Below, piece after piece: positions 17,153 through 30,188 of a stretch of 62,264 nucleotides of DNA. How positions within the stretch are numbered: the stretch's first letter is position 1; each line of letters opens with the position of its first letter. The DNA is taken from NCBI RefSeq assembly GCF_003334305.1, contig NZ_QOWS01000027.1, one strand, 5' to 3'. The notes beneath the pieces were generated by a model. It had not been told where the DNA came from, did no database searches, and saw only the letters and a list, made by a program, of their open reading frames with translations. The translations under genes were made by a program, and so were the position numbers. This DNA comes from Escherichia coli. Lineage in GTDB: Bacteria > Pseudomonadota > Gammaproteobacteria > Enterobacterales > Enterobacteriaceae.

Positions 17153-17851
17153 TTAGTTCCATGCATTTTTTGAGATCCCGGCCAAATAATGGTGCTGACG
17201 ATATTCCTCTGGCATCATATTGTTTAGTGATTCATACGGGCGTTCACAGTTATATTCTGACACCCATCTTTCAGTGATTTCCCGCACTTCATTCAGTGTT
17301 CTGAACAGATAAAAATCGAGTATTTCTGTACGGTATGTCCTGTTAAAACGCTCGATGAAAGCGTTCTGCGTCGGCTTACCCGGCTGGATAAACTCCAGTT
17401 TTACTGCATGTTTCTCTGCCCATTCAGCCAGTGCCAGTGAGATAAATTCCGGACCATTATCCATACGTAGCATGACCGGATAGCCACGGTTTGACGCGAT
17501 CCTGTTGAGTACACGAACCACTCGCAGAGCTGGCAGATTCAGATCGATTTCAATCGACAACGCCTCACGGTTAAAGTCATCAACGACATTAAACGTGCGA
17601 AAACGACGGCCACAGACTAGGGCATCATGCATAAAATCGACAGACCAGCTCTGGTTCAGCGCTTCCGGCGTGGCCAGTGGCGAGGGATTACGCACCAGCA
17701 ACCGCTGTTTGCCCTTACGGCGAAAGTTCAGCTTCAGCAGACAATAAATACGATGGATCCTTTTGTGATTCCACGGGTATCCCTGCCGCCGCAAAACCTG
17801 GAAAAGTTTCGGAAAACCGTATCGTGGGTATCGCTCTGCCACTGCCTGCAA
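17153..17851 (-). CDS. IS3-family transposase OrfB (DDE integrase core), expressed by -1 frameshift from orfA
   Basis: DDE-region motifs (NGPEF, QNAFIERFNRTYRTE, ERPYESL); true coding region extends upstream to the slippery site near 18004. Confidence 0.8.
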   Translation of the reverse strand: MQAVAERYPRYGFPKLFQVLRRQGYPWNHKRIHRIYCLLKLNFRRKGKQRLLVRNPSPLATPEALNQSWSVDFMHDALVCGRRFRTFNVVDDFNREALSIEIDLNLPALRVVRVLNRIASNRGYPVMLRMDNGPEFISLALAEWAEKHAVKLEFIQPGKPTQNAFIERFNRTYRTEILDFYLFRTLNEVREITERWVSEYNCERPYESLNNMMPEEYRQHHYLAGISKNAWN

Positions 17852-17984
17852 AGCGACAATAACGAGTTCGTCAGGCGTGGTATCCGGGCGGTAATGGTAA
17901 ACCGTTCTGCTCAGGTTCAGACTCCGGCAGGCCTGACGGATACTGAGTCCGAACGTCGTTATCAGATGAGTAACCAGCTCACGC

Positions 17985-18263
17985 TTAAAGGCTAGTTTTA
18001 AAGCTTTTTTCGATAACGTCTTTCAGCGCCCTGTTCTCAAGACTCAGGTCGGCAAACATCTGTTTGAGACGTGGGTTCTCGTCCTCAAGATCCTTGATCT
18101 TTTTAATATCAGAAGCCTCCATGCCACCGTATCTGGACTTCCAGTTGTAGTAGGTGGCTTCAGAAATACCGGCCTCCCGGCAGACATCTTTAACGGTTCG
18201 TCCGGCTTCAACTGACTTAATCACAGCGATGATCTGATGCTCAGTAAAACGGGCTTTACGCAT
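17985..18263 (-). CDS. IS3-family transposase OrfA (HTH)
   Basis: 92 aa, MRKARFTEHQIIAVIKSVEAGRTVKDVCREAGISEATYYNWKSRYGG; strong SD GAAGGAG upstream. Confidence 0.85.
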   Translation of the reverse strand: MRKARFTEHQIIAVIKSVEAGRTVKDVCREAGISEATYYNWKSRYGGMEASDIKKIKDLEDENPRLKQMFADLSLENRALKDVIEKSFKTSL

Positions 18264-18474
18264 AGCGATCTCCTTCGTTAGCAGATTGATTATGCCGGAT
18301 GATCTCTAAATATGAATGGCACGATTATGCGGGATACTTACACCCCCGGGCCACCATTTCTCGCCATATCCGGCTGGTATTATAATTACCTCTTTCTCGT
18401 TGTGTAAAAGCCAGCTCAAGGACTGAAAGCCTTAAAATACATGCTATTAACAAATATTAAAAGAGAATAACCTT

Positions 18475-18502
18475 GAGTGCCCTATAGGACTTTAGGGCAC
18501 TC
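18475..18502 (-). terminator. Putative terminator hairpin downstream of the large helicase gene
   Basis: Perfect inverted repeat gagtgcccta...tagggcactc just 3' of the stop at 18513; weak T-tract. Confidence 0.4.
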
Positions 18503-18512
18503 AATACTGCTA

Positions 18513-21500
18513 TCAGCGCAACAATTTTCTAATATTTTGATGCGCTTGTGGCAGATTTGAACGAAGAAGATATTCATTAAAGGCTATATGAGCATTAGTA
18601 TTCTTTGACTTATATACGTCGTGTTGAAAGTCGGGTCGATCAATAAGACCAGGGTAACTTCCCACTGCAACAGAACGGTCATTCAAACTCACAATCATAG
18701 GTGCCTCCTGAGTTCCCTTAATTAGGCATTGAAAACCATCCAATTCCAGACTTGCCCTCAATTGAGACAATTTTTCTACCTGAATATCAGGTGAAGCACA
18801 ACGAGGAACCATTCCGTATAGAGCATAACGAAGTAAAGATGCACCTAGTTTCCTATCGAGACGGCTTTGTATATGCTGGTTGTGGAAATGATTGAGACAA
18901 TCTGTACAGGAGGTATCGCACTCACAACCTTCTAACAATGCGAGTGTTGCAGTAAGAATGTCATCTAGATTCGCTGCTGCTACTTCCGCATAACCCGCAC
19001 CGCCAGATAAAGTATCATAAAGGAAGAGATCCAATGCCTGAGTATCTTCCTCTATAGTGGGTAAAATTCTGAAACCAGAGCCAAACTCAGCAGGATCAAG
19101 ATCCAGTTGTTTATGGCGACTAGCTGCAAGCCTTAGTGCTTCCGCTATTGTATATAATGCATCTTCATACATCCGTAAAACGATAGCATTTGAAGTATCA
19201 GTTACAAGCGGAGACCCAACGGTTATTCGTAATAAAAGCAAATCAGTACGGAAATCATGTCCGAGAAAAACGCGTTTATACTCGCCAGAGCATAAGCGAG
19301 GCGTTTCCTTAGTTGCTATATATTTATACGGTCTTTCATGTGCCCCCTTTGCCGGTGAGTAGGAATCATAAACGGAGGCCGCACCACATTCGCAACATAC
19401 TGAAAAACCACTGGACCCCCCCTCATTTTTCCCTCGGTTCACCGTCACCAGTTTCTGATCTATTGCGTGAGTAAAAACAATATGAGCACCTCCATTATTG
19501 AACTTAAAATCTTCAGGATCAACAGGTTGTGGATATTGTGCCGCAGTTACATAGGTGATTTCTTGCTCTCTGTCGTCCTCATTAAGTTCCTTGGCATTTT
19601 CAGGTCCAAAGACTTCGGGCTGAATCATTATTTCTACTTTTAGAATGCCACCACAGATCGGACAAGTATTTTCGCTATTCTGATTATTATGAGGATCGCG
19701 GACAAAAGAGCACTTATCGCAATGAATAAACTTTTTGGGATTATTGAAAAGCTTTCTTGCCCGGTTTAGTTCGCCTTTCAATGCATTAGAAAAAACACCA
19801 CCAGAGCGATAGGTTTTCCTATCAATAACAATCAAACGTCCCGGGGCATATTCACTCAGAGCCTGAGAAATTGATTGCTGAGGCTGTTGTACTGTTCGCA
19901 CCTCAAAAGAACCTCTAATATTCTTTACAATTTTTTCTACCAAGAAACTACAGAGGCTTGTAGGAAATGCATAACTTGGTAATAAACCATGGTAAAACAG
20001 GAACTCAAGTAATTCTTCTTGTGCAAATTTCATTCCACCAGAAGTCTGCTCATCATCTTCATTTTCCTCATCAACAAGAACGGCAATTTGTGGAACAATT
20101 TCAGCCAGCCCATGGAGTGTATTTAAAAATTCCTCTGCTACCTTAGCAAACCAGTCACTGGCAGAAAGCCCTCCAGTTTCAAGAACAGGAGGAAGCCATG
20201 CTGCAACACTTGTTCTCAAATCACCATTAGTAGATAGAATACGGTTTTTAACCCAATTATTAAAGCTATCGAGATTTAGGCCAGTATCTTTTGCTCCATG
20301 AAAAAAATCTCGTGTAGTACCAAGTGCTTTCTCAAGTATGGCAGTTTTCTCTGTGGGATTATAAATTCCTTGTTCCATTAACTCGTGAAAAAAGGTCTGA
20401 ACTAAAAAAGAATGAACGTGTCTTCTGGCTATTTTGGGATTATTTACTTTCACTTCAGGTGTACGAGGAGAACCTGCAACAATGCGTTCAGGATTAAGGA
20501 AATAATAACTATCATGAGGGCCATTTTGAGAATATGTAACCACCGTTGAAACAGATGCGCCACGGCGGCCTGCTCGCCCAGCACGTTGCTGATAATTTTC
20601 TCGTTGCGGAGGGACGTTTCTTAAAGCAACAGCAACCAGAGATCCAATATCAACCCCCACTTCCATCGTCGTCGTACAACTAAGTACATCAATGGGCTTG
20701 TCGTTATCATTAATAAGAACATCTTGGAATCTCAGTTCGTAGAGTTCTGTAGTGGCATGAACGCTGGCCCTATCTCTATGTGAGAGTTGAGCAGTATGCT
20801 CTTCAACGCTAAGGTTTAGAAGCCGCGAATTTGAAACCAAAACTTCTTCTACCGGCGAACGCCAGAATCCTTTTCGTGCATTAATATAGCTGCTTTCCGA
20901 CGGCTCGACTGTTTTGACACTGTTACTACCACAAGCAAGGCAAGTAGAATGTTCTAAAGCAAATGGCATTAGTGCCGTGCAGTCATTACATTGTTTCCAG
21001 ACATGCAAGAGATCTATTTTCAGACGTAGTGCATTTGGAGCAAGAAAGTAGACACCATCTTTTCCTAATGTCAGATGAGTACGAAAAATCTCCTCCAAAA
21101 CTTCCACATAAAGCTCCCCCATAGCAGGATGCTGTATCAGGGTTTTCCTAAGAGCTTTTCCAAACCGTCCTTGACTACCCCAAGTGGGTTTGTAGAATCC
21201 AGCGGCTTTGATTCGTAGTGTCGAATCAATAGATTCATCAAAAGCAAATTCAGTGAGTAAGGTATCAATCCAAGCAACAGCTAAAGCATGAACATCCTTG
21301 CTCTCAATATTGAGCTTCTTGGACTGCACATCTTCCCACATTTTTTTTGATTTAAGCTGCGATGGTTCAACAAAACCAACTGTTGTTCCGGAAAGAGAAT
21401 AGTAATTGCTACATAAAAGTTTAAGCAACGCTATTTTATATCGTGACGGTGACTCTTGGGGACTGAAGTTATCATCAAAAGCTTGAGCCAGATCGCTATT

Positions 21501-24023
21501 ATAATCACGATAAAATTCATCACGGGCCATTACAACTTTTCGTGAATCTTCCCCATCAAAAATAAGCAAGTCATGTTCAGAAAGGACTGATAGGAAAGCA
21601 AGGTAAAGTACTGATGTTGGTTTGGGTTCCCGATTGATATCTTTCAGTTTAGAACAGGCGAGAGCAATGGATTGCCGAAACAAATCAAGCTCAATATCTC
21701 TAGGAATATCACGTGCAAGCCGAGCTGCTTTTTGTCGGCCATCAGAAAAAATAAGTACTTTTTTTCCCCCATTGGGATGTTTACCATCAATAGGACGACT
21801 CGCTGGCTGGTGAGATATCTGTGTACGTACTAACGTTGTAAAAGGTGCTTCCCCTTTTGTAACATGATCCATAATTTTAGACGGTTCATTCTGAGCACTT
21901 CTTGTCTTACGCATACAAACAGGGCATTCATCAAATGTAATTTCAGATCCAGACTTAACTCGGTCAGGTATAAAGACTTTACGATAACCAGAATCCTCAT
22001 CTTGACACTGTTTAGAAAGGCGTCCTGTTGCTATATGTAGCCATCTGTCCTGGTAATCACTATGTACATGAGGTGTTTCCTCGACCAATATATCTATGGG
22101 AACAAGATCGATATCCTCATCTTCTGATAATGGTCCGTTCGGCTGGTGCCATACAAAGTCCATTTCGGAACTAACGTATCCACGAATAAAAGCCGCACCG
22201 CAGTCACGGTGGGTAAATAATTCGTAGACTCGCCCTTTTGAAGCGCATTTACATTGATCCAGTGGTTTCGTATAAAGGCGGCCAAGTATAGTTGGCCCAC
22301 TATGGTTACCCAAACGTTGATTACAATCGGGATCTATACAGGCATAAAGACCTGGTAATCCCCGATAAAAAAGATGCATGCGAGTTGGAATAAGCACTCT
22401 GCCATCGGATGCCCTCTGAGCATAGCAACCCAATGCGAGTAATGCATCTGTCGCTCGCTCTGCAATTTGCTGTGGAGAGTCTGGAAAAAGGTTTTCACTC
22501 AAGATATTTAGCTTAACCGCTTTACCTGAAACTATTTCAATAAGCGTTTCAATAGGACCAAAACCAGTCAAATTATCAAATAACCAATTACGTAGTGTAC
22601 TATGATCTTTTATCATCGGCTTTTGCCAGCCCATTCGTTCGGCAAGAGACTCTATTGCTGCATATGCAGATTCAAGATCCTCAGCTACGCACTGAAATGA
22701 ATTTAGGTCGAATTCAGCCAGTGCATTAGCTTCTTTACTGGTAACAATTTGTGACTCAGGACGCGATTCCCTTGTACCCTCAATAATTCGAAATTTCCTC
22801 GAAGAGGTTGGTGATAAGCCAGTTAAGTCTTGGGCAAAACGTTCTCCATCCTCAATGGACCCTAGACTAGCACTGGTAAGGATGCAGCGCATACGTTCCC
22901 GGGGAATATCCAACCGAGCACAGAGGCGACGTATTAAAAGGGCTACCTCTGCTCCCCCTGCTCCTCTATACATATGCGCTTCATCAAGCACTAAGATAAG
23001 CTCATTCATCTCATCAGCTTTGAGCCATTCCTTAGTCTGCTCAAAAATATTACGCTCGATAGGTCGCATCAGCATATACTCAAGCATGGAGTAGTTCGTT
23101 ATCAGTAATTCTGGACAGCGATTCTGCATTTCATGCCGGGTCATTAGCTCACGATCCTCAGGCTGGGTAATTAGCCTCTCCCCCCAATTGTTCAAAACAA
23201 ATTGCTTACCCGTTTTTTTGCCTGAGACGTAGGTTTTAGCCTGAGATGCGCTTTGCCCATAAAAAGCATCAAGATCTTTACTTGGCCAGCGACCAATGCG
23301 GTTCAGTTCCGCACGTACGGGGGCGTTATTTGCGAGTTTATTGTAAAACTCATCGAAAAGGGGTTTGATAAAAAGCTCGTCTCGTCTAGAGCTACGACGA
23401 CCAGGGTAAGGCGTTCTTCCCGTATAAGCGCCAAAGCGTACAGGGGCACATCTTCCAGATCTCAGTATTTTAGAGGCTTCAGAATCACCAAAAAGACGTC
23501 TGATACGAGCAAGTTGATCGTTAACTAATGCATTCATTGGATATAATAAAATTGCTCTACAACCTGGAAGGGATGCAGATTTAGGTCTCTCGGAAGATTC
23601 AATCGCCAATTTACCAATAATTGGCATTAGAAAGCTTTCAGTCTTACCGGAGCCTGTACCTGTTGCAATGACCAGATCAGAAGCGTCTTCGCCAAGAAAT
23701 GACTCAAGTGCCTGTGATTGGTGTTTATAGGGGCGTTGATAGAGGCCAATTCCAAGTTCTGATAGTTGAGTTAGCACATTACTTGCTGCTTCGGGAATAG
23801 GCAATTCACTGTATGGCGCACCAGGTTCATAAATTGGGGTTGCTTCTATATAAGGAGCTTGAGCAATAGTTTCATTTTGCTGTAAAAGCGCTCGTCGCTC
23901 AGCAATTAACCCTTCATCCCGGATATGATATTGTGCCTCAATGTATTTTCTCAGATTCTCACTAAGGCTTTTCACGGTATCATGTATACCTGAACGTTCA
24001 GTTACTTTATTTTTATTAATCAT
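18513..24023 (-). CDS. druE: Giant SF2 DEAH-box helicase with Cys-rich C-terminal region; DruE-like (Druantia type I)
   Basis: 1836 aa; Walker A ATGTGSGKT (nt ~23643-23666), DEAH box ILVLDEAHM (~22971-22997), motif VI QRAGRAGRRG (~20559-20591), C-terminal Cys clusters (CDKCSF...CPICGG, CCECGAA, CECDTSCTDC) consistent with a DUF1998-like zinc-binding module. Confidence 0.8.
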   Translation of the reverse strand: MINKNKVTERSGIHDTVKSLSENLRKYIEAQYHIRDEGLIAERRALLQQNETIAQAPYIEATPIYEPGAPYSELPIPEAASNVLTQLSELGIGLYQRPYKHQSQALESFLGEDASDLVIATGTGSGKTESFLMPIIGKLAIESSERPKSASLPGCRAILLYPMNALVNDQLARIRRLFGDSEASKILRSGRCAPVRFGAYTGRTPYPGRRSSRRDELFIKPLFDEFYNKLANNAPVRAELNRIGRWPSKDLDAFYGQSASQAKTYVSGKKTGKQFVLNNWGERLITQPEDRELMTRHEMQNRCPELLITNYSMLEYMLMRPIERNIFEQTKEWLKADEMNELILVLDEAHMYRGAGGAEVALLIRRLCARLDIPRERMRCILTSASLGSIEDGERFAQDLTGLSPTSSRKFRIIEGTRESRPESQIVTSKEANALAEFDLNSFQCVAEDLESAYAAIESLAERMGWQKPMIKDHSTLRNWLFDNLTGFGPIETLIEIVSGKAVKLNILSENLFPDSPQQIAERATDALLALGCYAQRASDGRVLIPTRMHLFYRGLPGLYACIDPDCNQRLGNHSGPTILGRLYTKPLDQCKCASKGRVYELFTHRDCGAAFIRGYVSSEMDFVWHQPNGPLSEDEDIDLVPIDILVEETPHVHSDYQDRWLHIATGRLSKQCQDEDSGYRKVFIPDRVKSGSEITFDECPVCMRKTRSAQNEPSKIMDHVTKGEAPFTTLVRTQISHQPASRPIDGKHPNGGKKVLIFSDGRQKAARLARDIPRDIELDLFRQSIALACSKLKDINREPKPTSVLYLAFLSVLSEHDLLIFDGEDSRKVVMARDEFYRDYNSDLAQAFDDNFSPQESPSRYKIALLKLLCSNYYSLSGTTVGFVEPSQLKSKKMWEDVQSKKLNIESKDVHALAVAWIDTLLTEFAFDESIDSTLRIKAAGFYKPTWGSQGRFGKALRKTLIQHPAMGELYVEVLEEIFRTHLTLGKDGVYFLAPNALRLKIDLLHVWKQCNDCTALMPFALEHSTCLACGSNSVKTVEPSESSYINARKGFWRSPVEEVLVSNSRLLNLSVEEHTAQLSHRDRASVHATTELYELRFQDVLINDNDKPIDVLSCTTTMEVGVDIGSLVAVALRNVPPQRENYQQRAGRAGRRGASVSTVVTYSQNGPHDSYYFLNPERIVAGSPRTPEVKVNNPKIARRHVHSFLVQTFFHELMEQGIYNPTEKTAILEKALGTTRDFFHGAKDTGLNLDSFNNWVKNRILSTNGDLRTSVAAWLPPVLETGGLSASDWFAKVAEEFLNTLHGLAEIVPQIAVLVDEENEDDEQTSGGMKFAQEELLEFLFYHGLLPSYAFPTSLCSFLVEKIVKNIRGSFEVRTVQQPQQSISQALSEYAPGRLIVIDRKTYRSGGVFSNALKGELNRARKLFNNPKKFIHCDKCSFVRDPHNNQNSENTCPICGGILKVEIMIQPEVFGPENAKELNEDDREQEITYVTAAQYPQPVDPEDFKFNNGGAHIVFTHAIDQKLVTVNRGKNEGGSSGFSVCCECGAASVYDSYSPAKGAHERPYKYIATKETPRLCSGEYKRVFLGHDFRTDLLLLRITVGSPLVTDTSNAIVLRMYEDALYTIAEALRLAASRHKQLDLDPAEFGSGFRILPTIEEDTQALDLFLYDTLSGGAGYAEVAAANLDDILTATLALLEGCECDTSCTDCLNHFHNQHIQSRLDRKLGASLLRYALYGMVPRCASPDIQVEKLSQLRASLELDGFQCLIKGTQEAPMIVSLNDRSVAVGSYPGLIDRPDFQHDVYKSKNTNAHIAFNEYLLRSNLPQAHQNIRKLLR

Positions 24024-25063
24024 ATTTCATTCCGTCGCGTGAATTCGTTAATCCAAATAATACCAAGCCCTTCAAAAGCGCTACGCACTATGGGTAATAT
24101 TTCCTCGGGGAATACATGGTGTGTTATTCCTGAATGTTCATTTTCAAAACCTGATTCTCTCCAGCCTAGCAGGAGTACCTTCGTTTCTCGTCTTGGTAAT
24201 CTTCTGGTTAATCTTAATCTTGCTAGCCCATTAGATATTTTGATACGGATCTTTAGCGGACAATTATCTTTTGTATCGAGAAAAAAACGTAATCTTCTGA
24301 CATCATCAGACGATTCTAACGAATTCATTCTACATAAGCGTCCAGCTTCAATTTCTCCTAAATAATAGGAAAAGTGATTATCAACGGACATTCTGCATAA
24401 GTAGATTTGCTTTTTATTAAAAGAAAGTTCTGACAAATGGAGCCATTTTCCCCGCACATATGCAGTCGTTTCACTCATATTGCTAGGCGCATCGATAAAG
24501 CCGGAAATAGTTCCAGATAGTAGTCTGGATGACCATTCTTCATTGCCTTCTGCTGGGGCACCAATCCACTCATTTGCATCCCAGATTTCAACACTTCCAG
24601 TACACACTTTTTCTTCAACCAAGCGAACTCTTCCAGCAGATTTAGCTACCACGCCCGTTGAAAATGTACAGGAAGGCTCTCCACCAAAAAAAACAGCCAT
24701 CTTATTGTCAATTCGTACTGCATGTGGGGGAGCTGTGAGCCAATTACCACCTTCTAACTTAATCATGTCACCCAATTCAGCCAAGCTGTTCAATATAGAC
24801 ATAATGCCCGGATGTATAGCATTATCAATATCAGCAATGTCTGGCCATAAAGGTACCAATTTTCGCCTTACTGCACTAGTGAGTCGAAGCGAGGTTACAG
24901 TTTGCCTAGCTTCTTCTGTTTCAGATATAGAATATTGATATAATACGCTCCTTAAGCATTCTGAAACTGCTGAAATTCTTAACCCTTCATCATCAAATCG
25001 ACAATTTAATGCAGTTGATAACATATCCAGTGCTTTGTCTCGTGATACTGCTCTCCACTCCAT
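24020..25063 (-). CDS. druD: DruD-like protein (Druantia type I component, unknown function)
   Basis: ~347 aa from ATG at 25063 with SD GAGGAGG (track ORF extends to 25078); stop overlaps the druE start (ATGA). Confidence 0.6.
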   Translation of the reverse strand: MEWRAVSRDKALDMLSTALNCRFDDEGLRISAVSECLRSVLYQYSISETEEARQTVTSLRLTSAVRRKLVPLWPDIADIDNAIHPGIMSILNSLAELGDMIKLEGGNWLTAPPHAVRIDNKMAVFFGGEPSCTFSTGVVAKSAGRVRLVEEKVCTGSVEIWDANEWIGAPAEGNEEWSSRLLSGTISGFIDAPSNMSETTAYVRGKWLHLSELSFNKKQIYLCRMSVDNHFSYYLGEIEAGRLCRMNSLESSDDVRRLRFFLDTKDNCPLKIRIKISNGLARLRLTRRLPRRETKVLLLGWRESGFENEHSGITHHVFPEEILPIVRSAFEGLGIIWINEFTRRNEI

Positions 25064-25074
25064 TAACCACCTCC

Positions 25075-26958
25075 TCAAGAAGATATTTTTGCACTATAAT
25101 TTTTTAATTCACGATTGGCAATATCTTCTATCTTTTGGACGGGGCCACCTTTAATTTTTGCCCATGTAAGAGTATAAAAAGACAAGACAGAATAAAGATC
25201 ATAAATATAATTTCCATTAGGGACTCTTATGAGTGAAGTATAGAAAATATGAACCATTCTCTTCCACAAAGTTCCCCCATCAAATCCAGCTTCGTCCAGT
25301 AATGCTCTTAATTCATCTACATAATCATCAACACTATCAAGCTGTAGTCCATCAATATTTGTCCATTTATCCTTGGCAAGACAACCTGGTTTCAATTGGG
25401 GTAAAATAGCAGATAAACCACGCATTTTTAATGTATCAGTATCAATAACTGGTCCCAACTCGGCCAACATTCCTCCATCAGGGAATGTAGCAGGGCCTTG
25501 TTTCCAAGTAGCTATCAATGCCAGATGGTCATAATTTGTTGGATGTATTTGCCGTTGAACAACTATATCTCTAATTGCCGCTCCATAAATCTCAAATGCT
25601 GAAAGATTGGCCCCTTTCAAAAGGAGACAGCGAGATGATTCAGCTATAGTCTCTATAAAATCAAAAGAATCCATGTCAGAAATAATACCAACTGGAACTC
25701 TCCATATGTGATAACGTGGTGCACCAATAGCAATGGCAATTGCATCCGCGATAATATCTGCCAAAGAGCCACTGAATTGAATGATTTGTCCAGAAACGAA
25801 GGTAGCTAATGTCAATCTAGCCAATGTTTCTGCTGAATTTTTTGTTAACCCAACAGCCTGTAAATTTAAAGAAATTCTATTAGATATGTCTTCGGAGGAT
25901 GAAAGATATTCATAATTTTCATAGTGCGCTATTTCATGGAATTTTGTAAATCTATTGGTGACACTCACTTTGCTAGCTTGAGATGTGTTTATTTCCAGTG
26001 TATCTATTCGTTCAGTGAGTTTTTTTAATTCATTGATATAATCTAACTCGTTGTTCTTTCTTTTATTATCACACAAGATAGTTAATGCATTTTTTAACTC
26101 TGAAATTTCATTAGCCATACTTTTTATCAATTTTTCATGCTCAGAAATGTCATTCATAGCCAGAGCATTAAAATCTAATTTCTCTTGAAGAGATAATATT
26201 AGCTGTTTGTTTTTTTCATTAAAATGATAAAGCTCGTCAATAGATTTATTAGCAATATCAGATTGTTTAGTCTCTGAGTTTATTAAGGATTGTAGTTCGT
26301 TAATTATTTTTAAATTGCTCTTTTCATTATTAAAGTAATTATCAAACCGTTCGGAAAAAGCATCTATTTTTAACTCAAGCTCTTTAATATGGTTATTTTT
26401 TTTCTCCACATTATCGGCAATTAAACTAATACGTGCTTCAAGCTCATCTAAACGAATTGGAAGAGTATCAACCACGATATCGCGGGCAAGAACAACTGCA
26501 GGAGGAAAAAGGTTAAATGCATTTATAACGTCTGGATCATTAGCAAACCCACTAAAGATAAACAGGCGCTCGATATTCTCTCTAGCAACTTTAGGAAAGT
26601 TTTTAGCAAGCTCTCTAATAAAAATAGAGCCAGAGTTTTCTTTTAATCCTAAATTATTAATCATACTAAATGATTTGTCAATTTTCTCTTCAGCCCAAAA
26701 CTGCCAAAAAAGAGAAAAACTTTTCCATGCTTTTCTCTCCTCAGAGGAAGGATGTGACTGGAACATATACCCAATCAATCTTTTCTGTTTTTCTTTAATT
26801 TCAGTGGGATGTCCTGCCCTGAATCCCGGTACTTTTGGTAAACAACCAAAAGCTTTACGTCGTAAAGTTGGAGAAATCTCATTGATAAAGTTAACAATTT
26901 CGGATTGTCCCAACTTAGAGATCCGTTCCTTTGCCTCTTGGCTATATTGGTAACTCAT
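25075..26958 (-). CDS. druC: DruC-like protein (Druantia type I component) with predicted coiled-coil region
   Basis: 627 aa; K/E/L-rich heptad-like central segment; ATG start at 26958. Confidence 0.6.
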   Translation of the reverse strand: MSYQYSQEAKERISKLGQSEIVNFINEISPTLRRKAFGCLPKVPGFRAGHPTEIKEKQKRLIGYMFQSHPSSEERKAWKSFSLFWQFWAEEKIDKSFSMINNLGLKENSGSIFIRELAKNFPKVARENIERLFIFSGFANDPDVINAFNLFPPAVVLARDIVVDTLPIRLDELEARISLIADNVEKKNNHIKELELKIDAFSERFDNYFNNEKSNLKIINELQSLINSETKQSDIANKSIDELYHFNEKNKQLILSLQEKLDFNALAMNDISEHEKLIKSMANEISELKNALTILCDNKRKNNELDYINELKKLTERIDTLEINTSQASKVSVTNRFTKFHEIAHYENYEYLSSSEDISNRISLNLQAVGLTKNSAETLARLTLATFVSGQIIQFSGSLADIIADAIAIAIGAPRYHIWRVPVGIISDMDSFDFIETIAESSRCLLLKGANLSAFEIYGAAIRDIVVQRQIHPTNYDHLALIATWKQGPATFPDGGMLAELGPVIDTDTLKMRGLSAILPQLKPGCLAKDKWTNIDGLQLDSVDDYVDELRALLDEAGFDGGTLWKRMVHIFYTSLIRVPNGNYIYDLYSVLSFYTLTWAKIKGGPVQKIEDIANRELKNYSAKISS

Positions 26959-26969
26959 TCGAAGGCACC

Positions 26970-28616
26970 TTATCTAAAGCGATTACATTCAAATCCATTG
27001 GTCTTAACTTCTTTTACCAATGCTCTATAATGCGGTAATAAGTGTGGTTCCGGCTGCAAATCCACTAATTTCTCAACTAATAAAAAATCATTATTTAAAC
27101 TAAAACCATGGAGGGTGTGCCCCATTTGAAGTATAAAACTTAATATCCGTGAGCGAAGATTAGGAGATAATTCAATAAATTCCCCGTCATCTAATGATAA
27201 CATAGAAGAACTAGGTAAAAATATTTTACCAAGACCTAAAAAATCTATTTCTACATGACATGTTAAGTTTGCTAAGCAATCAGATAATTGAGATAACGCA
27301 ACAGGAGATAGTAACCGCATGCTCTTATCATGAGCTGCAATGTCATCATTAGAAACTAACTTAATAACACTACTTTCAGTTTGTCTTTGAATTCTTGCCA
27401 CTCCTTCAACACCAGAAGGCATAGACATGTATTCTAATTTATGGCCAAACATTCGTGCTTCCATCATAACTTCAATGCATCTTCTTTGATGTAAGGAAAC
27501 GATGGTCTTTTCTTTATTCCTCTTAGTAAAAACCAAATCTATTGAGGGATATTTTCTGGGTACAGAAACGTTTTTTTTATAGAAAGAAAAAAATAAGTTT
27601 ACGTCCTGCTCAATTGAGCCAGAAACGCCCACAAAGTCATTTTCTCCAGGATTAAGAATGAAGAAAGCAGGTGATTTTTCAACACCAATCGCTGAAAGTA
27701 ATAAAGAGGAACCTTGTGCGTACATAGTTGGTCCAACATTTTCTGATGATGTTGGTGCCATATTTGCTGACAACAATATTGTGTCAGAATGAACACATTC
27801 GACATGATTAATACTTGTTTTTTGATTTAGGAACGGCCAAATTGCTGTAATAGATGTTCTGGCAGGAACAACAGGAAGGTATGTAAAAGATTTTAGCCAT
27901 GAAATACTCTCCACAGAAGGGACTTCAGGAATTGTAACAAGAGCTAAATTCCATCCCTGTTTACTAGCTAAACTTTTTATTTCTAATTCATCAGGAAAAT
28001 CTGGAGCAACAGGGTGTCGCCAAAGAAAGGCAAATGTTTCAGTACATCTTAACTCTTGTGCTCGTGGAAATCCCTTCGATGCCCCACGCCCTAAAGCAGT
28101 GAAAACTGCTGCTCCCTCAGAAGGTAAACCGGGGCATTCTCTTTCAACTTCTGTTACAAATTTTGGATCGGGTTCACCACTATATGAAACAATACGGTAA
28201 GATTTTACTGATAATTCAGCACCAATCTGGCGACTCTTTACCATACTCCTCATATCAAGCGTTTGGCTTCTGCCTCCTACATCTAACGTTATCTTTGCTC
28301 TACATAAATTACAGGTTGGCAACACTAATTCTAATGACCACTCTCGACTATTACTTCCGACAGGAATCAATAAGCGCAAATCCATATATCGCTTTGAAAT
28401 AGTTTTAATAGTTTCGATAATGATGGAATTTCCGGGAACAAAATTTTCACAGTCTGACGTACCATGTCCGGGCAAATGAGCAAAATATGGGGGTATAACC
28501 TTCCCTTTACGGAGGTTAACACCTTTTTTACAAACTGGGCAAACATATTGAGCATATTTCGTTGCTCGAGCTGCTAATATCAGTGTCCCGGTGAACTTAT
28601 CAATAGCGTAATTCAC
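26970..28616 (-). CDS. druB: DruB-like protein (Druantia type I component)
   Basis: 548 aa; apparent GTG start with SD GGGGGAG; N-terminal CPVCKK...HLPGHGTSDC zinc-ribbon-like motif. Confidence 0.6.
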   Translation of the reverse strand: MNYAIDKFTGTLILAARATKYAQYVCPVCKKGVNLRKGKVIPPYFAHLPGHGTSDCENFVPGNSIIIETIKTISKRYMDLRLLIPVGSNSREWSLELVLPTCNLCRAKITLDVGGRSQTLDMRSMVKSRQIGAELSVKSYRIVSYSGEPDPKFVTEVERECPGLPSEGAAVFTALGRGASKGFPRAQELRCTETFAFLWRHPVAPDFPDELEIKSLASKQGWNLALVTIPEVPSVESISWLKSFTYLPVVPARTSITAIWPFLNQKTSINHVECVHSDTILLSANMAPTSSENVGPTMYAQGSSLLLSAIGVEKSPAFFILNPGENDFVGVSGSIEQDVNLFFSFYKKNVSVPRKYPSIDLVFTKRNKEKTIVSLHQRRCIEVMMEARMFGHKLEYMSMPSGVEGVARIQRQTESSVIKLVSNDDIAAHDKSMRLLSPVALSQLSDCLANLTCHVEIDFLGLGKIFLPSSSMLSLDDGEFIELSPNLRSRILSFILQMGHTLHGFSLNNDFLLVEKLVDLQPEPHLLPHYRALVKEVKTNGFECNRFR

Positions 28617-28637
28617 TTACTCCCCCTTCAGTTAAGA

Positions 28638-29852: not shown

Positions 29853-30188
29853 TTTTATCTCACGTTCCAATTAGTATTTAGTCCCACTAAATTTCACTTA
29901 GAGCCCCAGTGATTAATCGCATGGCACAAGAGAGTCCCCTCCTTGCTCCCTCGATCGGGACATCGCCAATGATAGCATTTATACAAGCAATTCTGGGAGC
30001 TTATAGATTTTGTGAAAAACTTTTGATAGCAGGAGGTTACAACAGCATTGATGAAAAAAATCATTCAAATAGATTTATAGATTTTGTTAATGTTATCTGT
30101 TTTCAATCTAACAACCACGAATATAGCTAATTATAGGATGATTACTAGTTTTACTACCCTATCAACCAAACGTTCACCGGACATTAGA

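What the first reader, a model, noticed from the sequence alone, without database searches (positions are those of the whole stretch)
24020..29870. Translational coupling and non-ATG starts within the dru-like operon
The druD stop overlaps the druE start (ATGA at 24020-24023). A GAGGAGG Shine-Dalgarno for druD lies inside the druC 3' end, with ATG at 25063 (the ORF track extends to a TTG at 25078). druB appears to start with GTG at 28616, preceded by GGGGGAG. The druA track ORF starts at a TTG, but an in-frame ATG at 29852 is more plausible. This points to stoichiometric co-expression and affects the exact N-termini.
Basis: seen in the sequence. Interest (0 to 1): 0.3.

Follow-up and report, generated by a model that had tools for sequence, protein, structure and literature searches.

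The report
Start codons of E. coli Druantia operon

Summary
Window 18513-29852 (minus strand) is the type I Druantia operon druABCDE. The whole window is 100% identical to the E. coli A7 chromosome. DruA and DruD are identical in sequence to Swiss-Prot DRUA_ECOU4 and DRUD_ECOU4.

Every sequence detail in the finding is present: ATGA at 24020-24023, GAGGAGG before the ATG at 25063, GGGGGAG before the GTG at 28616, and ATG 29852 downstream of TTG 29870. One wording is loose. GAGGAGG overlaps only the last two bases of the druC stop codon, and the rest lies in the 11-nt spacer.

All four start choices equal the RefSeq CDS starts. They are also supported by 26 homologous operons. There druA, druC and druE start with ATG in 26/26, druD with ATG or GTG at the same codon, and druB with TTG or GTG in 19/26.

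Coupling by termination-reinitiation is plausible only for druD-druE, which has a 4-nt overlap and no real Shine-Dalgarno sequence. That overlap is not conserved. "Stoichiometric co-expression" is not supported, because ribosome-site strengths and start codons differ sharply between the cistrons.

Minor extras: a conserved weak start behind a strong SD at druB (which makes public gene calls truncate DruB elsewhere), a conserved hairpin after druE, and a rare natural DruD-DruE fusion.

Already known; low interest.

The parts
28638..29852 (-). druA CDS, 404 aa, ATG start at 29852
   Evidence: RefSeq CDS WP_000548583.1 in the identical record. PADLOC DruA1 E=5e-218, with residue 1 matching profile position 1. 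Pfam PF14236 DruA. The exact sequence equals Swiss-Prot DRUA_ECOU4. ATG at the homologous codon in 26/26 operons.
29868..29870 (-). Upstream in-frame TTG (start of the mechanical ORF), rejected as the druA start
   Evidence: The TTG is absent, out of frame or cut off by stop codons in most homologs. The 410-aa form is on 5 contigs, against at least 1000 for the 404-aa form.
26970..28616 (-). druB CDS, 548 aa, GTG start at 28616
   Evidence: RefSeq CDS. PADLOC DruB1 E=3e-270, residues 1-548 on profile 1-549. An in-frame TAA lies directly upstream and the next in-frame Met is residue 78. The homologous codon is TTG 14, GTG 5, ATG 7 in 26 operons, and conserved residues begin at codon 2.
28620..28626 (-). 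GGGGGAG Shine-Dalgarno site of druB, in the 21-nt druA-druB spacer
   Evidence: Duplex energy with the 16S 3' end is -10.8 kcal/mol, reached by 0.4% of operon positions. A G-rich SD precedes druB in nearly all homologs.
25075..26958 (-). druC CDS, 627 aa, ATG start, 11 nt after the druB stop, weak SD (AAGGTG)
   Evidence: RefSeq CDS. PADLOC DruC1 E=0. ATG in 26/26. SD energy -4.1 kcal/mol, which is background level.
25070..25076 (-). GAGGAGG Shine-Dalgarno site of druD, overlapping the last two bases of the druC stop TGA (25077-25075)
   Evidence: -13.5 kcal/mol, reached by 0.1% of operon positions. A TTGAGG/CTGAGG motif that joins the druC stop to the druD SD recurs in enterobacterial and many Pseudomonas operons.
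24020..25063 (-). druD CDS, 347 aa, ATG start at 25063
   Evidence: RefSeq CDS. PADLOC DruD1, residues 1-346 on profile 1-346 of 347. This Met is invariant in a 45-sequence alignment. The exact sequence equals Swiss-Prot DRUD_ECOU4.
25076..25078 (-). Upstream in-frame TTG (start of the mechanical ORF), rejected as the druD start
   Evidence: No SD upstream (+0.7 kcal/mol). Its frame relative to the ATG is not conserved. The 352-aa form is absent from a collection of about 15 billion proteins.
24020..24023 (-). ATGA: druE start overlapping the druD stop
   Evidence: Sequence. The druE SD is at background level, -3.5 kcal/mol. The junction in 26 operons is -4 in 8, -1 in 8, +2 in 2 and +11 to +19 in 8.
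18513..24023 (-). druE CDS, 1836 aa, helicase
   Evidence: RefSeq CDS. PADLOC DruE1 E=0. Pfam DEAD, Helicase_C and MZB.
18473..18504 (-). 12-bp hairpin 9 nt after the druE stop; likely transcription terminator marking the operon end
   Evidence: Terminator scan. A 10-14-bp hairpin sits at the same place, with different sequence, in 11 of the 13 operons inspected.
30138..30165 (-). Candidate promoter TTGATA-16-AATCAT upstream of druA (low confidence). A second candidate is the extended -10 TGCTATCAT at 29969-29977.
   Evidence: Consensus scan, with no enrichment of promoter-like sites over shuffles. Both motifs are kept in the closest relative(s) only (alignment). Inference only.
23985..24140 (-). 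Two imperfect 16-nt direct repeats (24140-24125 in druD, 24000-23985 in druE). A 140-bp deletion between them gives a natural DruD-DruE fusion in other strains.
   Evidence: The fusion protein P0127 has 2136 aa. The reconstruction matches. The junction was found as one piece in E. coli R12 only, 1 of 63 carrier genomes.

Best explanation
The region is the five-gene type I Druantia anti-phage operon druA-druB-druC-druD-druE of E. coli.

Shown:
- The gene starts are ATG 29852 (druA), GTG 28616 (druB), ATG 26958 (druC), ATG 25063 (druD) and ATG 24023 (druE).

Inferred:
- The five genes are read from one mRNA. It starts in the 336 nt between druA and an upstream IS element and ends at a conserved hairpin just after druE.
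- Translation is set gene by gene rather than equally. druB and druD have very strong ribosome-binding sites and probably initiate on their own; druB is damped by a weak GTG start codon. druA and druC have weak sites.
- druE has no real ribosome-binding site and starts inside the druD stop (AUGA). It is therefore most likely translated by ribosomes that have just finished druD (termination-reinitiation).
For: Identity of the locus:
- The window is 100% identical to E. coli A7 NZ_CP028767.1.
- The five RefSeq CDS have exactly these coordinates.
- PADLOC type I models hit all five proteins at E<1e-170, with profile position 1 at residue 1 for DruA to DruD; the DruE match starts at residue 9.
- Pfam finds DruA, DEAD, Helicase_C and MZB.
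- DruA and DruD equal Swiss-Prot DRUA_ECOU4 and DRUD_ECOU4.

Start sites:
- The DruD Met is invariant in 45 homologs.
- In 26 operons, protein conservation begins at these codons, and the upstream in-frame sequence is unconserved or closed by stop codons.
- The druB GTG follows an in-frame TAA, and the next Met is residue 78.

One transcription unit:
- Junctions are -4 to +21 nt.
- A hairpin is conserved after druE.

Tuned translation:
- SD energies are -10.8 (druB) and -13.5 (druD), against -3.3, -4.1 and -3.5 kcal/mol for druA, druC and druE.
- druB has a non-ATG start in 19/26 operons, while druA, druC and druE have ATG in 78/78.

Coupling at -4 overlaps:
- It was shown experimentally for native E. 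coli gene pairs (PMC6728339, PMC10666635).
Against: - There is no expression, ribosome-profiling or N-terminal protein data for this operon, so every translation-mechanism step is inferred.
- The druD-druE overlap is not conserved. 8 of 26 operons have +11 to +19 nt gaps, so coupling cannot be essential for the system.
- RNA folding gave no evidence that the druE, druC or druD start regions are masked, which coupling by unmasking would need. Z-scores were about 0 and accessibility was similar for all genes.
- One of the five overlapping E. coli pairs tested in the literature (bioBF) initiated independently despite a weak SD (PMC6728339).
- The promoter is not identified. Promoter-like sites are no more frequent than in shuffled sequence.
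Confidence: 0.85

Rival explanations
1. All five cistrons are translated by independent de novo initiation. The ATGA overlap and the short spacers reflect genome compaction and have no coupling function.
For: - The overlap is evolutionarily labile. A single earlier stop codon in a 78%-identical Klebsiella relative replaces it with an 11-nt gap, and 8 of 26 operons have +11 to +19 nt.
- No local RNA structure masks the druE start.
- The region before the druE ATG is A-rich and accessible, with unpaired probability 0.61.
- bioBF is a published overlapping pair without coupling.
Against: - druE has only background-level SD complementarity in E. coli (-3.5 kcal/mol, reached by 29% of operon positions), yet it is the core protein of the system.
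- 16 of 26 operons keep a -4 or -1 junction.
- 4 of 5 native E. coli pairs with a 4-nt overlap were coupled in reporter assays (PMC6728339).
Confidence: 0.3
2. One reading: the junction layout enforces equimolar (stoichiometric) production of the Dru proteins for a multi-subunit complex.
For: - Tight spacing is kept in all 26 operons. B-C, C-D and D-E junctions are mostly -17 to +13 nt.
- Short-distance pairs are 4.5-fold enriched for complex subunits in E. coli (PMC10666635).
- A natural in-frame DruD-DruE fusion exists.
Against: - SD strength differs by about 10 kcal/mol between cistrons.
- druB keeps a weak start codon in 19/26 operons.
- The A-B junction is never an overlap (15-37 nt), and three of the four E. 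coli junctions are outside the overlap class.
- Even among short-distance E. coli pairs, 70% do not encode complex subunits.
- No paper I found reports a Dru protein complex for type I.
Confidence: 0.1
3. The upstream TTG codons (25078 for druD, 29870 for druA) are used, giving proteins that are 5 and 6 residues longer.
For: - Both are in frame and open.
- TTG 25078 overlaps the druC stop as TTGA, a geometry that resembles ATGA.
- One GenBank submission annotates the 410-aa DruA (UOY26344.1).
Against: - There is no SD before TTG 25078 (+0.7 kcal/mol).
- The frame relation between TTG and ATG is not conserved.
- The extensions are unconserved or interrupted by stop codons in homologs.
- The Met at 25063 is invariant in 45 sequences.
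- The 352-aa DruD is absent from the protein collection.
- The RefSeq and Swiss-Prot sequences start at the ATG codons.
Confidence: 0.03
4. A programmed -1 frameshift at the end of druD makes a DruD-DruE fusion protein from the overlapping frames.
For: - druE is in the -1 frame relative to druD.
- A fusion protein is found in some strains.
Against: - The druE frame has a TGA two codons before its ATG, and there is no slippery heptamer in the remaining bases.
- The natural fusion is explained by a 140-bp deletion between direct repeats, not by frameshifting.
Confidence: 0.01

Closest known systems
Type I Druantia system druABCDE of E. coli UMEA 4076-1 (Swiss-Prot DRUA_ECOU4 to DRUE_ECOU4). To my knowledge this is the system shown to protect against phages by Doron et al., Science 2018; that paper was not held in the library.
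   Same: - Same five genes in the same order.
- The DruA and DruD sequences, including their N-termini, are identical to the Swiss-Prot entries.
- The same operon is annotated in 63 complete E. coli genomes.
   Different: Nothing detectable at the protein level for DruA and DruD. I did not compare DruB, DruC and DruE with the UMEA 4076-1 entries directly.
Translational coupling by termination-reinitiation at ATGA/TGATG overlaps (Huber et al. 2019, PMC6728339; Huber et al. 2023, PMC10666635)
   Same: druD-druE has the canonical 4-nt ATGA overlap in a co-directional pair. The druB-druC and druC-druD spacers of 11 nt fall in the small E. coli peak at +9 to +12 nt described there.
   Different: Coupling has not been measured for this pair. 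The druE upstream region lacks the SD that helped reinitiation in 4 of 5 tested E. coli pairs. The overlap is not conserved among Druantia operons.
Type III Druantia (DruH-DruE), the mechanistically studied relative (bioRxiv 10.64898/2026.05.12.722862; PMC13192584)
   Same: It shares the large YprA/MrfA-family helicase DruE with DEAD, Helicase_C and MZB domains.
   Different: Type III has one accessory gene (druH) instead of druA-D. The DruE dimerisation domain reported there is said to be specific to type III. The type I mechanism is still unknown apart from a reported link to m6A modification.

Membership tests
Type I Druantia anti-phage system | Five co-directional genes druA, druB, druC, druD, druE in that order, each matching the type I specific models | tested here: met
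   PADLOC DruA1, DruB1, DruC1, DruD1 and DruE1 all hit at E<1e-170 over full length. RefSeq names the five CDS accordingly.
Type I Druantia anti-phage system | DruA carries the DUF4338/DruA domain (PF14236) | tested here: met
   Pfam PF14236, E=5.5e-82, residues 45-338.
Type I Druantia anti-phage system | DruE is a large SF2 helicase with DEAD, Helicase_C and the DUF1998/MZB zinc-binding domain | tested here: met
   DEAD, Helicase_C and MZB PF09369. 1836 aa.
Type I Druantia anti-phage system | Confers resistance to phage infection | not testable with these tools
   DruA and DruD are identical to the Swiss-Prot entries of the UMEA 4076-1 system. A type I system in DH10B gave broad protection in bioRxiv 10.1101/2024.04.14.589459. 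This allele was not tested here.
Translationally coupled gene pair (termination-reinitiation) | Co-directional pair whose stop and start codons overlap (-4 or -1 nt) or lie within a few nt | tested here: met
   Met for druD-druE only (ATGA). The druA-druB (+21), druB-druC (+11) and druC-druD (+11) junctions do not meet it.
Translationally coupled gene pair (termination-reinitiation) | Translation of the downstream gene depends on translation of the upstream gene reaching the junction | not testable with these tools
   Needs a reporter with a premature stop codon in druD, as in PMC6728339.
Translationally coupled gene pair (termination-reinitiation) | Junction geometry conserved among homologous operons | tested here: inconclusive
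   The D-E junction is -4 or -1 in 16 of 26 operons, +2 in 2 and +11 to +19 in 8. This is a tendency, not a rule.
Coupling by unmasking of a structured start region | The downstream SD or start codon is sequestered in a conserved RNA structure that upstream translation opens | tested here: not met
   The E. coli druB SD pairs with UUUCCCCC in druA (z=-1.9), but 16 homologs give no consensus structure. The other junctions have z near 0. Accessibility is similar across genes.

The most novel reading that the evidence does not exclude
The conserved pairing of a very strong ribosome-binding site with a weak TTG/GTG start codon at druB, set against invariant ATG at druA, druC and druE, may be a selected throttle that fixes DruB at a particular low level. 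The frequent stop-start overlap of druD and druE, together with a natural in-frame DruD-DruE fusion, may mean that DruD and DruE act as a 1:1 complex. That would give a first handle on the unknown architecture of type I Druantia.
Probability: 0.2. Interest if true: 0.3.

Novelty: already known. Interest (0 to 1): 0.1.

Why it matters
For this window it changes nothing. The RefSeq CDS and the Swiss-Prot sequences already begin at these start codons.

The practical value lies elsewhere. Because druB starts with TTG or GTG, automatic gene calls in other genomes begin at a later ATG and lose 80-126 N-terminal residues. That lost stretch includes the conserved CPxC motif and the part that matches Pfam CoiA_N. 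I saw this in Burkholderia, Pseudomonas aeruginosa and Ralstonia. Anyone who expresses or models type I Druantia proteins from those records would use truncated DruB.

The unequal ribosome-site strengths also caution against assuming equimolar Dru proteins when the still-unknown mechanism of type I Druantia is studied.

Tried and rejected
- The first genome-contig scan, with DruD alone, found no relatives. The second scan, with a 45-sequence alignment, gave 14 loci.
- NCBIfam has no models that hit DruA-D, and DruE gave only sub-threshold helicase hits. It therefore could not be used to place the N-termini.
- SD-masking hairpin at druA-druB. The E. coli sequence folds so that GGGGGAG pairs with UUUCCCCC (z=-1.9; 7 of 200 shuffles fold as well). 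The partner is not conserved and the 16-sequence alignment has no consensus structure. I reject it as a conserved feature.
- Accessibility of the start regions in 22 operons showed no clear difference between genes (means 0.40-0.55).
- Promoter scan: 25 sites against 33 expected from shuffles, so the operon promoter is not identified. The two candidates upstream of druA are kept only in the closest relative(s).
- A programmed frameshift between druD and druE is rejected. There is a stop codon in the druE frame two codons before its ATG.
- The text of Doron et al. 2018 could not be read. What I say about it rests on my own knowledge and on the Swiss-Prot entry names seen.
- Literature searches found no study of translation, start sites or protein stoichiometry of type I Druantia.

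Full report
WHAT IS THERE

The minus strand of window 18513-29852 carries five tightly packed ORFs. All five match the type I specific Druantia models of PADLOC at E<1e-170 over their full length: DruA1, DruB1, DruC1, DruD1 and DruE1. Pfam confirms the DruA domain in the first protein. It also finds DEAD, Helicase_C and the MrfA zinc-binding domain in the last one.

The 12-kb stretch is 100% identical to 16 or more complete E. coli chromosomes, and 63 of 5426 genomes carry it at full length. The whole 62-kb window is 100% identical to E. coli A7 NZ_CP028767.1 3935077-3997340.

In that RefSeq record the five CDS, in window coordinates, are as follows:
- druA 28638-29852
- druB 26970-28616
- druC 25075-26958
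- druD 24020-25063
- druE 18513-24023

The exact 404-aa DruA and 347-aa DruD sequences are the Swiss-Prot entries DRUA_ECOU4 and DRUD_ECOU4. To my knowledge these belong to the E. coli UMEA 4076-1 system tested by Doron et al. 2018. I could not read that paper. The locus is therefore a known, named and curated system, not merely 'dru-like'.

CHECK OF THE OBSERVATION

- ATGA at 24023-24020 joins the druD stop and the druE start.
- The druC stop TGA is 25077-25075. GAGGAGG is 25076-25070, followed by a 6-nt spacer and ATG 25063. The mechanical ORF runs on to TTG 25078.
- GGGGGAG lies at 28626-28620, then TAA, then GTG 28616.
- TTG 29870 and ATG 29852 are in frame.

The only inaccuracy is that GAGGAGG is not inside druC. 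It overlaps the last two bases of the druC stop codon and otherwise lies in the 11-nt spacer.

The two strong Shine-Dalgarno sites are statistical outliers. Their energies are -13.5 and -10.8 kcal/mol against the 16S 3' end, values reached by 0.1% and 0.4% of all positions in the operon. The ATGA overlap is not an outlier. It is the commonest distance between co-directional E. coli genes, and +9 to +12 nt spacers form a second small peak (PMC10666635).

START SITES

I collected 25 further type I Druantia operons. They come from Klebsiella, Rahnella, Aeromonas, Vibrio, Chromobacterium, Burkholderia, Ralstonia, many Pseudomonas species and metagenomes. Their DruD identity to the window ranges from 36% to 78%. 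I mapped the codon homologous to residue 1 of each E. coli protein.

- druA: ATG in 26/26. The TTG 18 nt upstream is present and in frame only in a few close relatives. Elsewhere it is missing, out of frame or separated from the ATG by stop codons.
- druB: the homologous codon is TTG in 14, GTG in 5 and ATG in 7 operons. In the window an in-frame TAA lies directly before the GTG, and the next Met is residue 78. That Met lies beyond the conserved (D/E/N)-Y-A...CPxC N-terminus, so the GTG is the only possible start.
- druC: ATG in 26/26.
- druD: ATG in 20 and GTG in 6. The Met at 25063 is invariant in a 45-protein alignment that opens M-E/K-W. The five extra residues from TTG 25078 are not conserved, that TTG has no SD (+0.7 kcal/mol), and its frame relative to the ATG varies between relatives.
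- druE: ATG in 26/26.

The 352-aa DruD does not occur in a collection of about 15 billion proteins. The 410-aa DruA occurs on 5 contigs, against at least 1000 for the 404-aa form.

HOW IT MOST LIKELY WORKS

One transcription unit is inferred from two observations:
- The junctions are +21, +11, +11 and -4 nt.
- A 12-bp hairpin lies 9 nt after the druE stop (18504-18473). A hairpin recurs at the same place, with different sequence but an intact stem, in 11 of 13 operons inspected.

The promoter is not identified. The native upstream region is the 336 nt between the druA ATG and the end of an ISEc18 element (30189-31208, with 25-nt perfect terminal repeats). Two candidates are kept only in the closest relative(s):
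- TTGATA-16-AATCAT at 30165-30138
- the extended -10 TGCTATCAT at 29977-29969

Translation appears to be set gene by gene:
- druB and druD have very strong SD sites and can initiate on their own. druB is damped by its non-ATG codon.
- druA, druC and druE have only background-level SD complementarity (-3.3, -4.1 and -3.5 kcal/mol, reached by 22-33% of operon positions).

For druE, an AUGA overlap without an SD makes termination-reinitiation by ribosomes that finish druD the most likely route. This was shown for 4 of 5 native E. coli pairs with this overlap (PMC6728339). For the +11 junctions the same authors found intermediate and gene-specific behaviour: a 40-80% loss at +14 nt and near-complete loss at about +20 nt or more (PMC10666635). 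Coupling at druB-druC and druC-druD is therefore open, and druA-druB (+21) is probably independent.

I found no support for the alternative route in which upstream translation opens a masking RNA structure. Only the E. coli druA-druB junction folds notably (z=-1.9), and that pairing is not conserved. Start-region accessibility is similar for all genes.

'Stoichiometric co-expression' does not follow from the sequence:
- SD strengths differ by about 10 kcal/mol between cistrons.
- druB avoids ATG in 19 of 26 operons, while its three neighbours use ATG in 78 of 78.
- The D-E junction is -4 in 8 operons, -1 in 8, +2 in 2 and +11 to +19 in 8.
- In the Klebsiella aerogenes operon (78% DruD identity), TGA stands where E. 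coli has CGA, so DruD ends five codons earlier and an 11-nt gap replaces the overlap. Two more enterobacterial operons have the same 342-aa form.

The overlap is thus a frequent but dispensable state. The last five DruD residues are not constrained.

COMPARISON WITH WHAT IS KNOWN

The locus passes every sequence-level test for type I Druantia and equals the reference system. The junction layout is textbook operon organisation.

The mechanism of type I Druantia itself remains unknown. The papers I could read deal with type III (DruH-DruE). They mention type I only as a multigene operon with a reported effect on m6A modification and a phage inhibitor, Druad1. None addresses translation or stoichiometry.

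SMALL THINGS THAT MAY BE NEW

1. The weak start codon behind a strong SD at druB is conserved across gamma- and beta-proteobacteria. It has a practical cost. Public gene calls for Burkholderia cenocepacia, Pseudomonas aeruginosa and Ralstonia solanacearum start DruB 80-126 residues too late and lose the stretch that matches Pfam CoiA_N.
2. A natural in-frame DruD-DruE fusion of 2136 aa (WP_375710990.1) arises from a 140-bp deletion between 16-nt imperfect direct repeats at 24140-24125 and 24000-23985. It is present in 1 of 63 complete carrier genomes, E. coli R12. It could be a decay product or a hint that DruD and DruE act together.

VERDICT

The coupling idea is plausible for one junction only, and the stoichiometry claim is unsupported. 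Everything essential is already in RefSeq and Swiss-Prot. Novelty: already known. Interest: 0.1.

Noticed in passing
window 23985-24140 (minus strand); E. coli R12 NZ_CP066740.1 4111906-4112205: A natural in-frame DruD-DruE fusion protein (2136 aa, WP_375710990.1, listed for 15 E. coli sequences). It is created by a 140-bp deletion between two 16-nt direct repeats that are 14/16 identical, one in the druD 3' part and one in the druE 5' part. The deletion removes the ATGA junction. It is present in 1 of 63 complete E. coli genomes that carry the operon. I do not know whether it is functional.
   Followed up: partly
L026 3955-5601, L027 3946-5616, L028 3960-5633: Public gene calls for DruB in Burkholderia cenocepacia, Pseudomonas aeruginosa and Ralstonia solanacearum start at a downstream ATG. 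They are 126, 80 and 80 residues too short. The homologous TTG/GTG start behind a strong SD was missed, and the truncated products have no Pfam CoiA_N hit.
   Followed up: yes
window 18473-18504 (minus strand): A 12-bp hairpin lies 9 nt after the druE stop. A hairpin of 10-14 bp sits at the same position in 11 of 13 related operons, with different sequence, as expected for a conserved terminator. The T-tract after it is weak in several of them.
   Followed up: partly
window 30189-31208: An ISEc18 (IS481 family) element with perfect 25-nt terminal inverted repeats ends 337 nt upstream of the druA start, next to a frameshifted phosphoethanolamine transferase pseudogene (31210-32711). A candidate druA promoter (30138-30165) lies only 24 nt from the IS end, so the insertion could influence operon expression.
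   Followed up: partly
window 1-34511: The Druantia operon lies in a genomic island next to a tRNA-Phe gene (34436-34511) with a tyrosine integrase (32976-34238). The island also holds an IS3 transposase (17153-18263), an EAL-domain gene, a chaperone-usher fimbrial operon, an IS21 remnant and pgtABCP. The operon has 40% G+C against 47.5% for the window; druC has 34%.
   Followed up: partly
window 28672-28680 with 28620-28626 (minus strand): In the E. coli sequence the druB SD GGGGGAG pairs with UUUCCCCC (the Phe-Pro-Pro codons near the druA end) in the minimum-energy fold (z=-1.9). The partner is not conserved in relatives, so this is probably incidental.
   Followed up: yes
L023 3972-7411 and 8554-14061 (Vibrio campbellii): In this distant operon druB is split into three or four short ORFs and druE into two. 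The druC-druD gap is 89 nt. This looks like a decaying copy, or sequencing errors.
   Followed up: no
L010 8513-8546 (Pseudomonas sp. K18): One extra G in a G-run just after the usual druE ATG puts that ATG out of frame. druE would then start five codons later than in its close relatives. This is either a real indel or an assembly error.
   Followed up: no
window 25093-25121 and 26653-26681 (minus strand): Two good sigma-70-like matches lie on the operon strand inside druC: TTGCCA-17-TATAGT about 30 nt before the druD ATG, and TTGACA-17-AATAAT. The region is AT-rich, and such sites are no more frequent than in shuffled sequence, so they may mean nothing.
   Followed up: no
protein collection clusters: The 90%-identity cluster that holds DruA also lists ISEc18 transposases, and the cluster that holds DruD also lists DruE. 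The second is explained by the DruD-DruE fusion protein linking them. The first suggests that a chimeric DruA/IS481 gene call exists somewhere.
   Followed up: no
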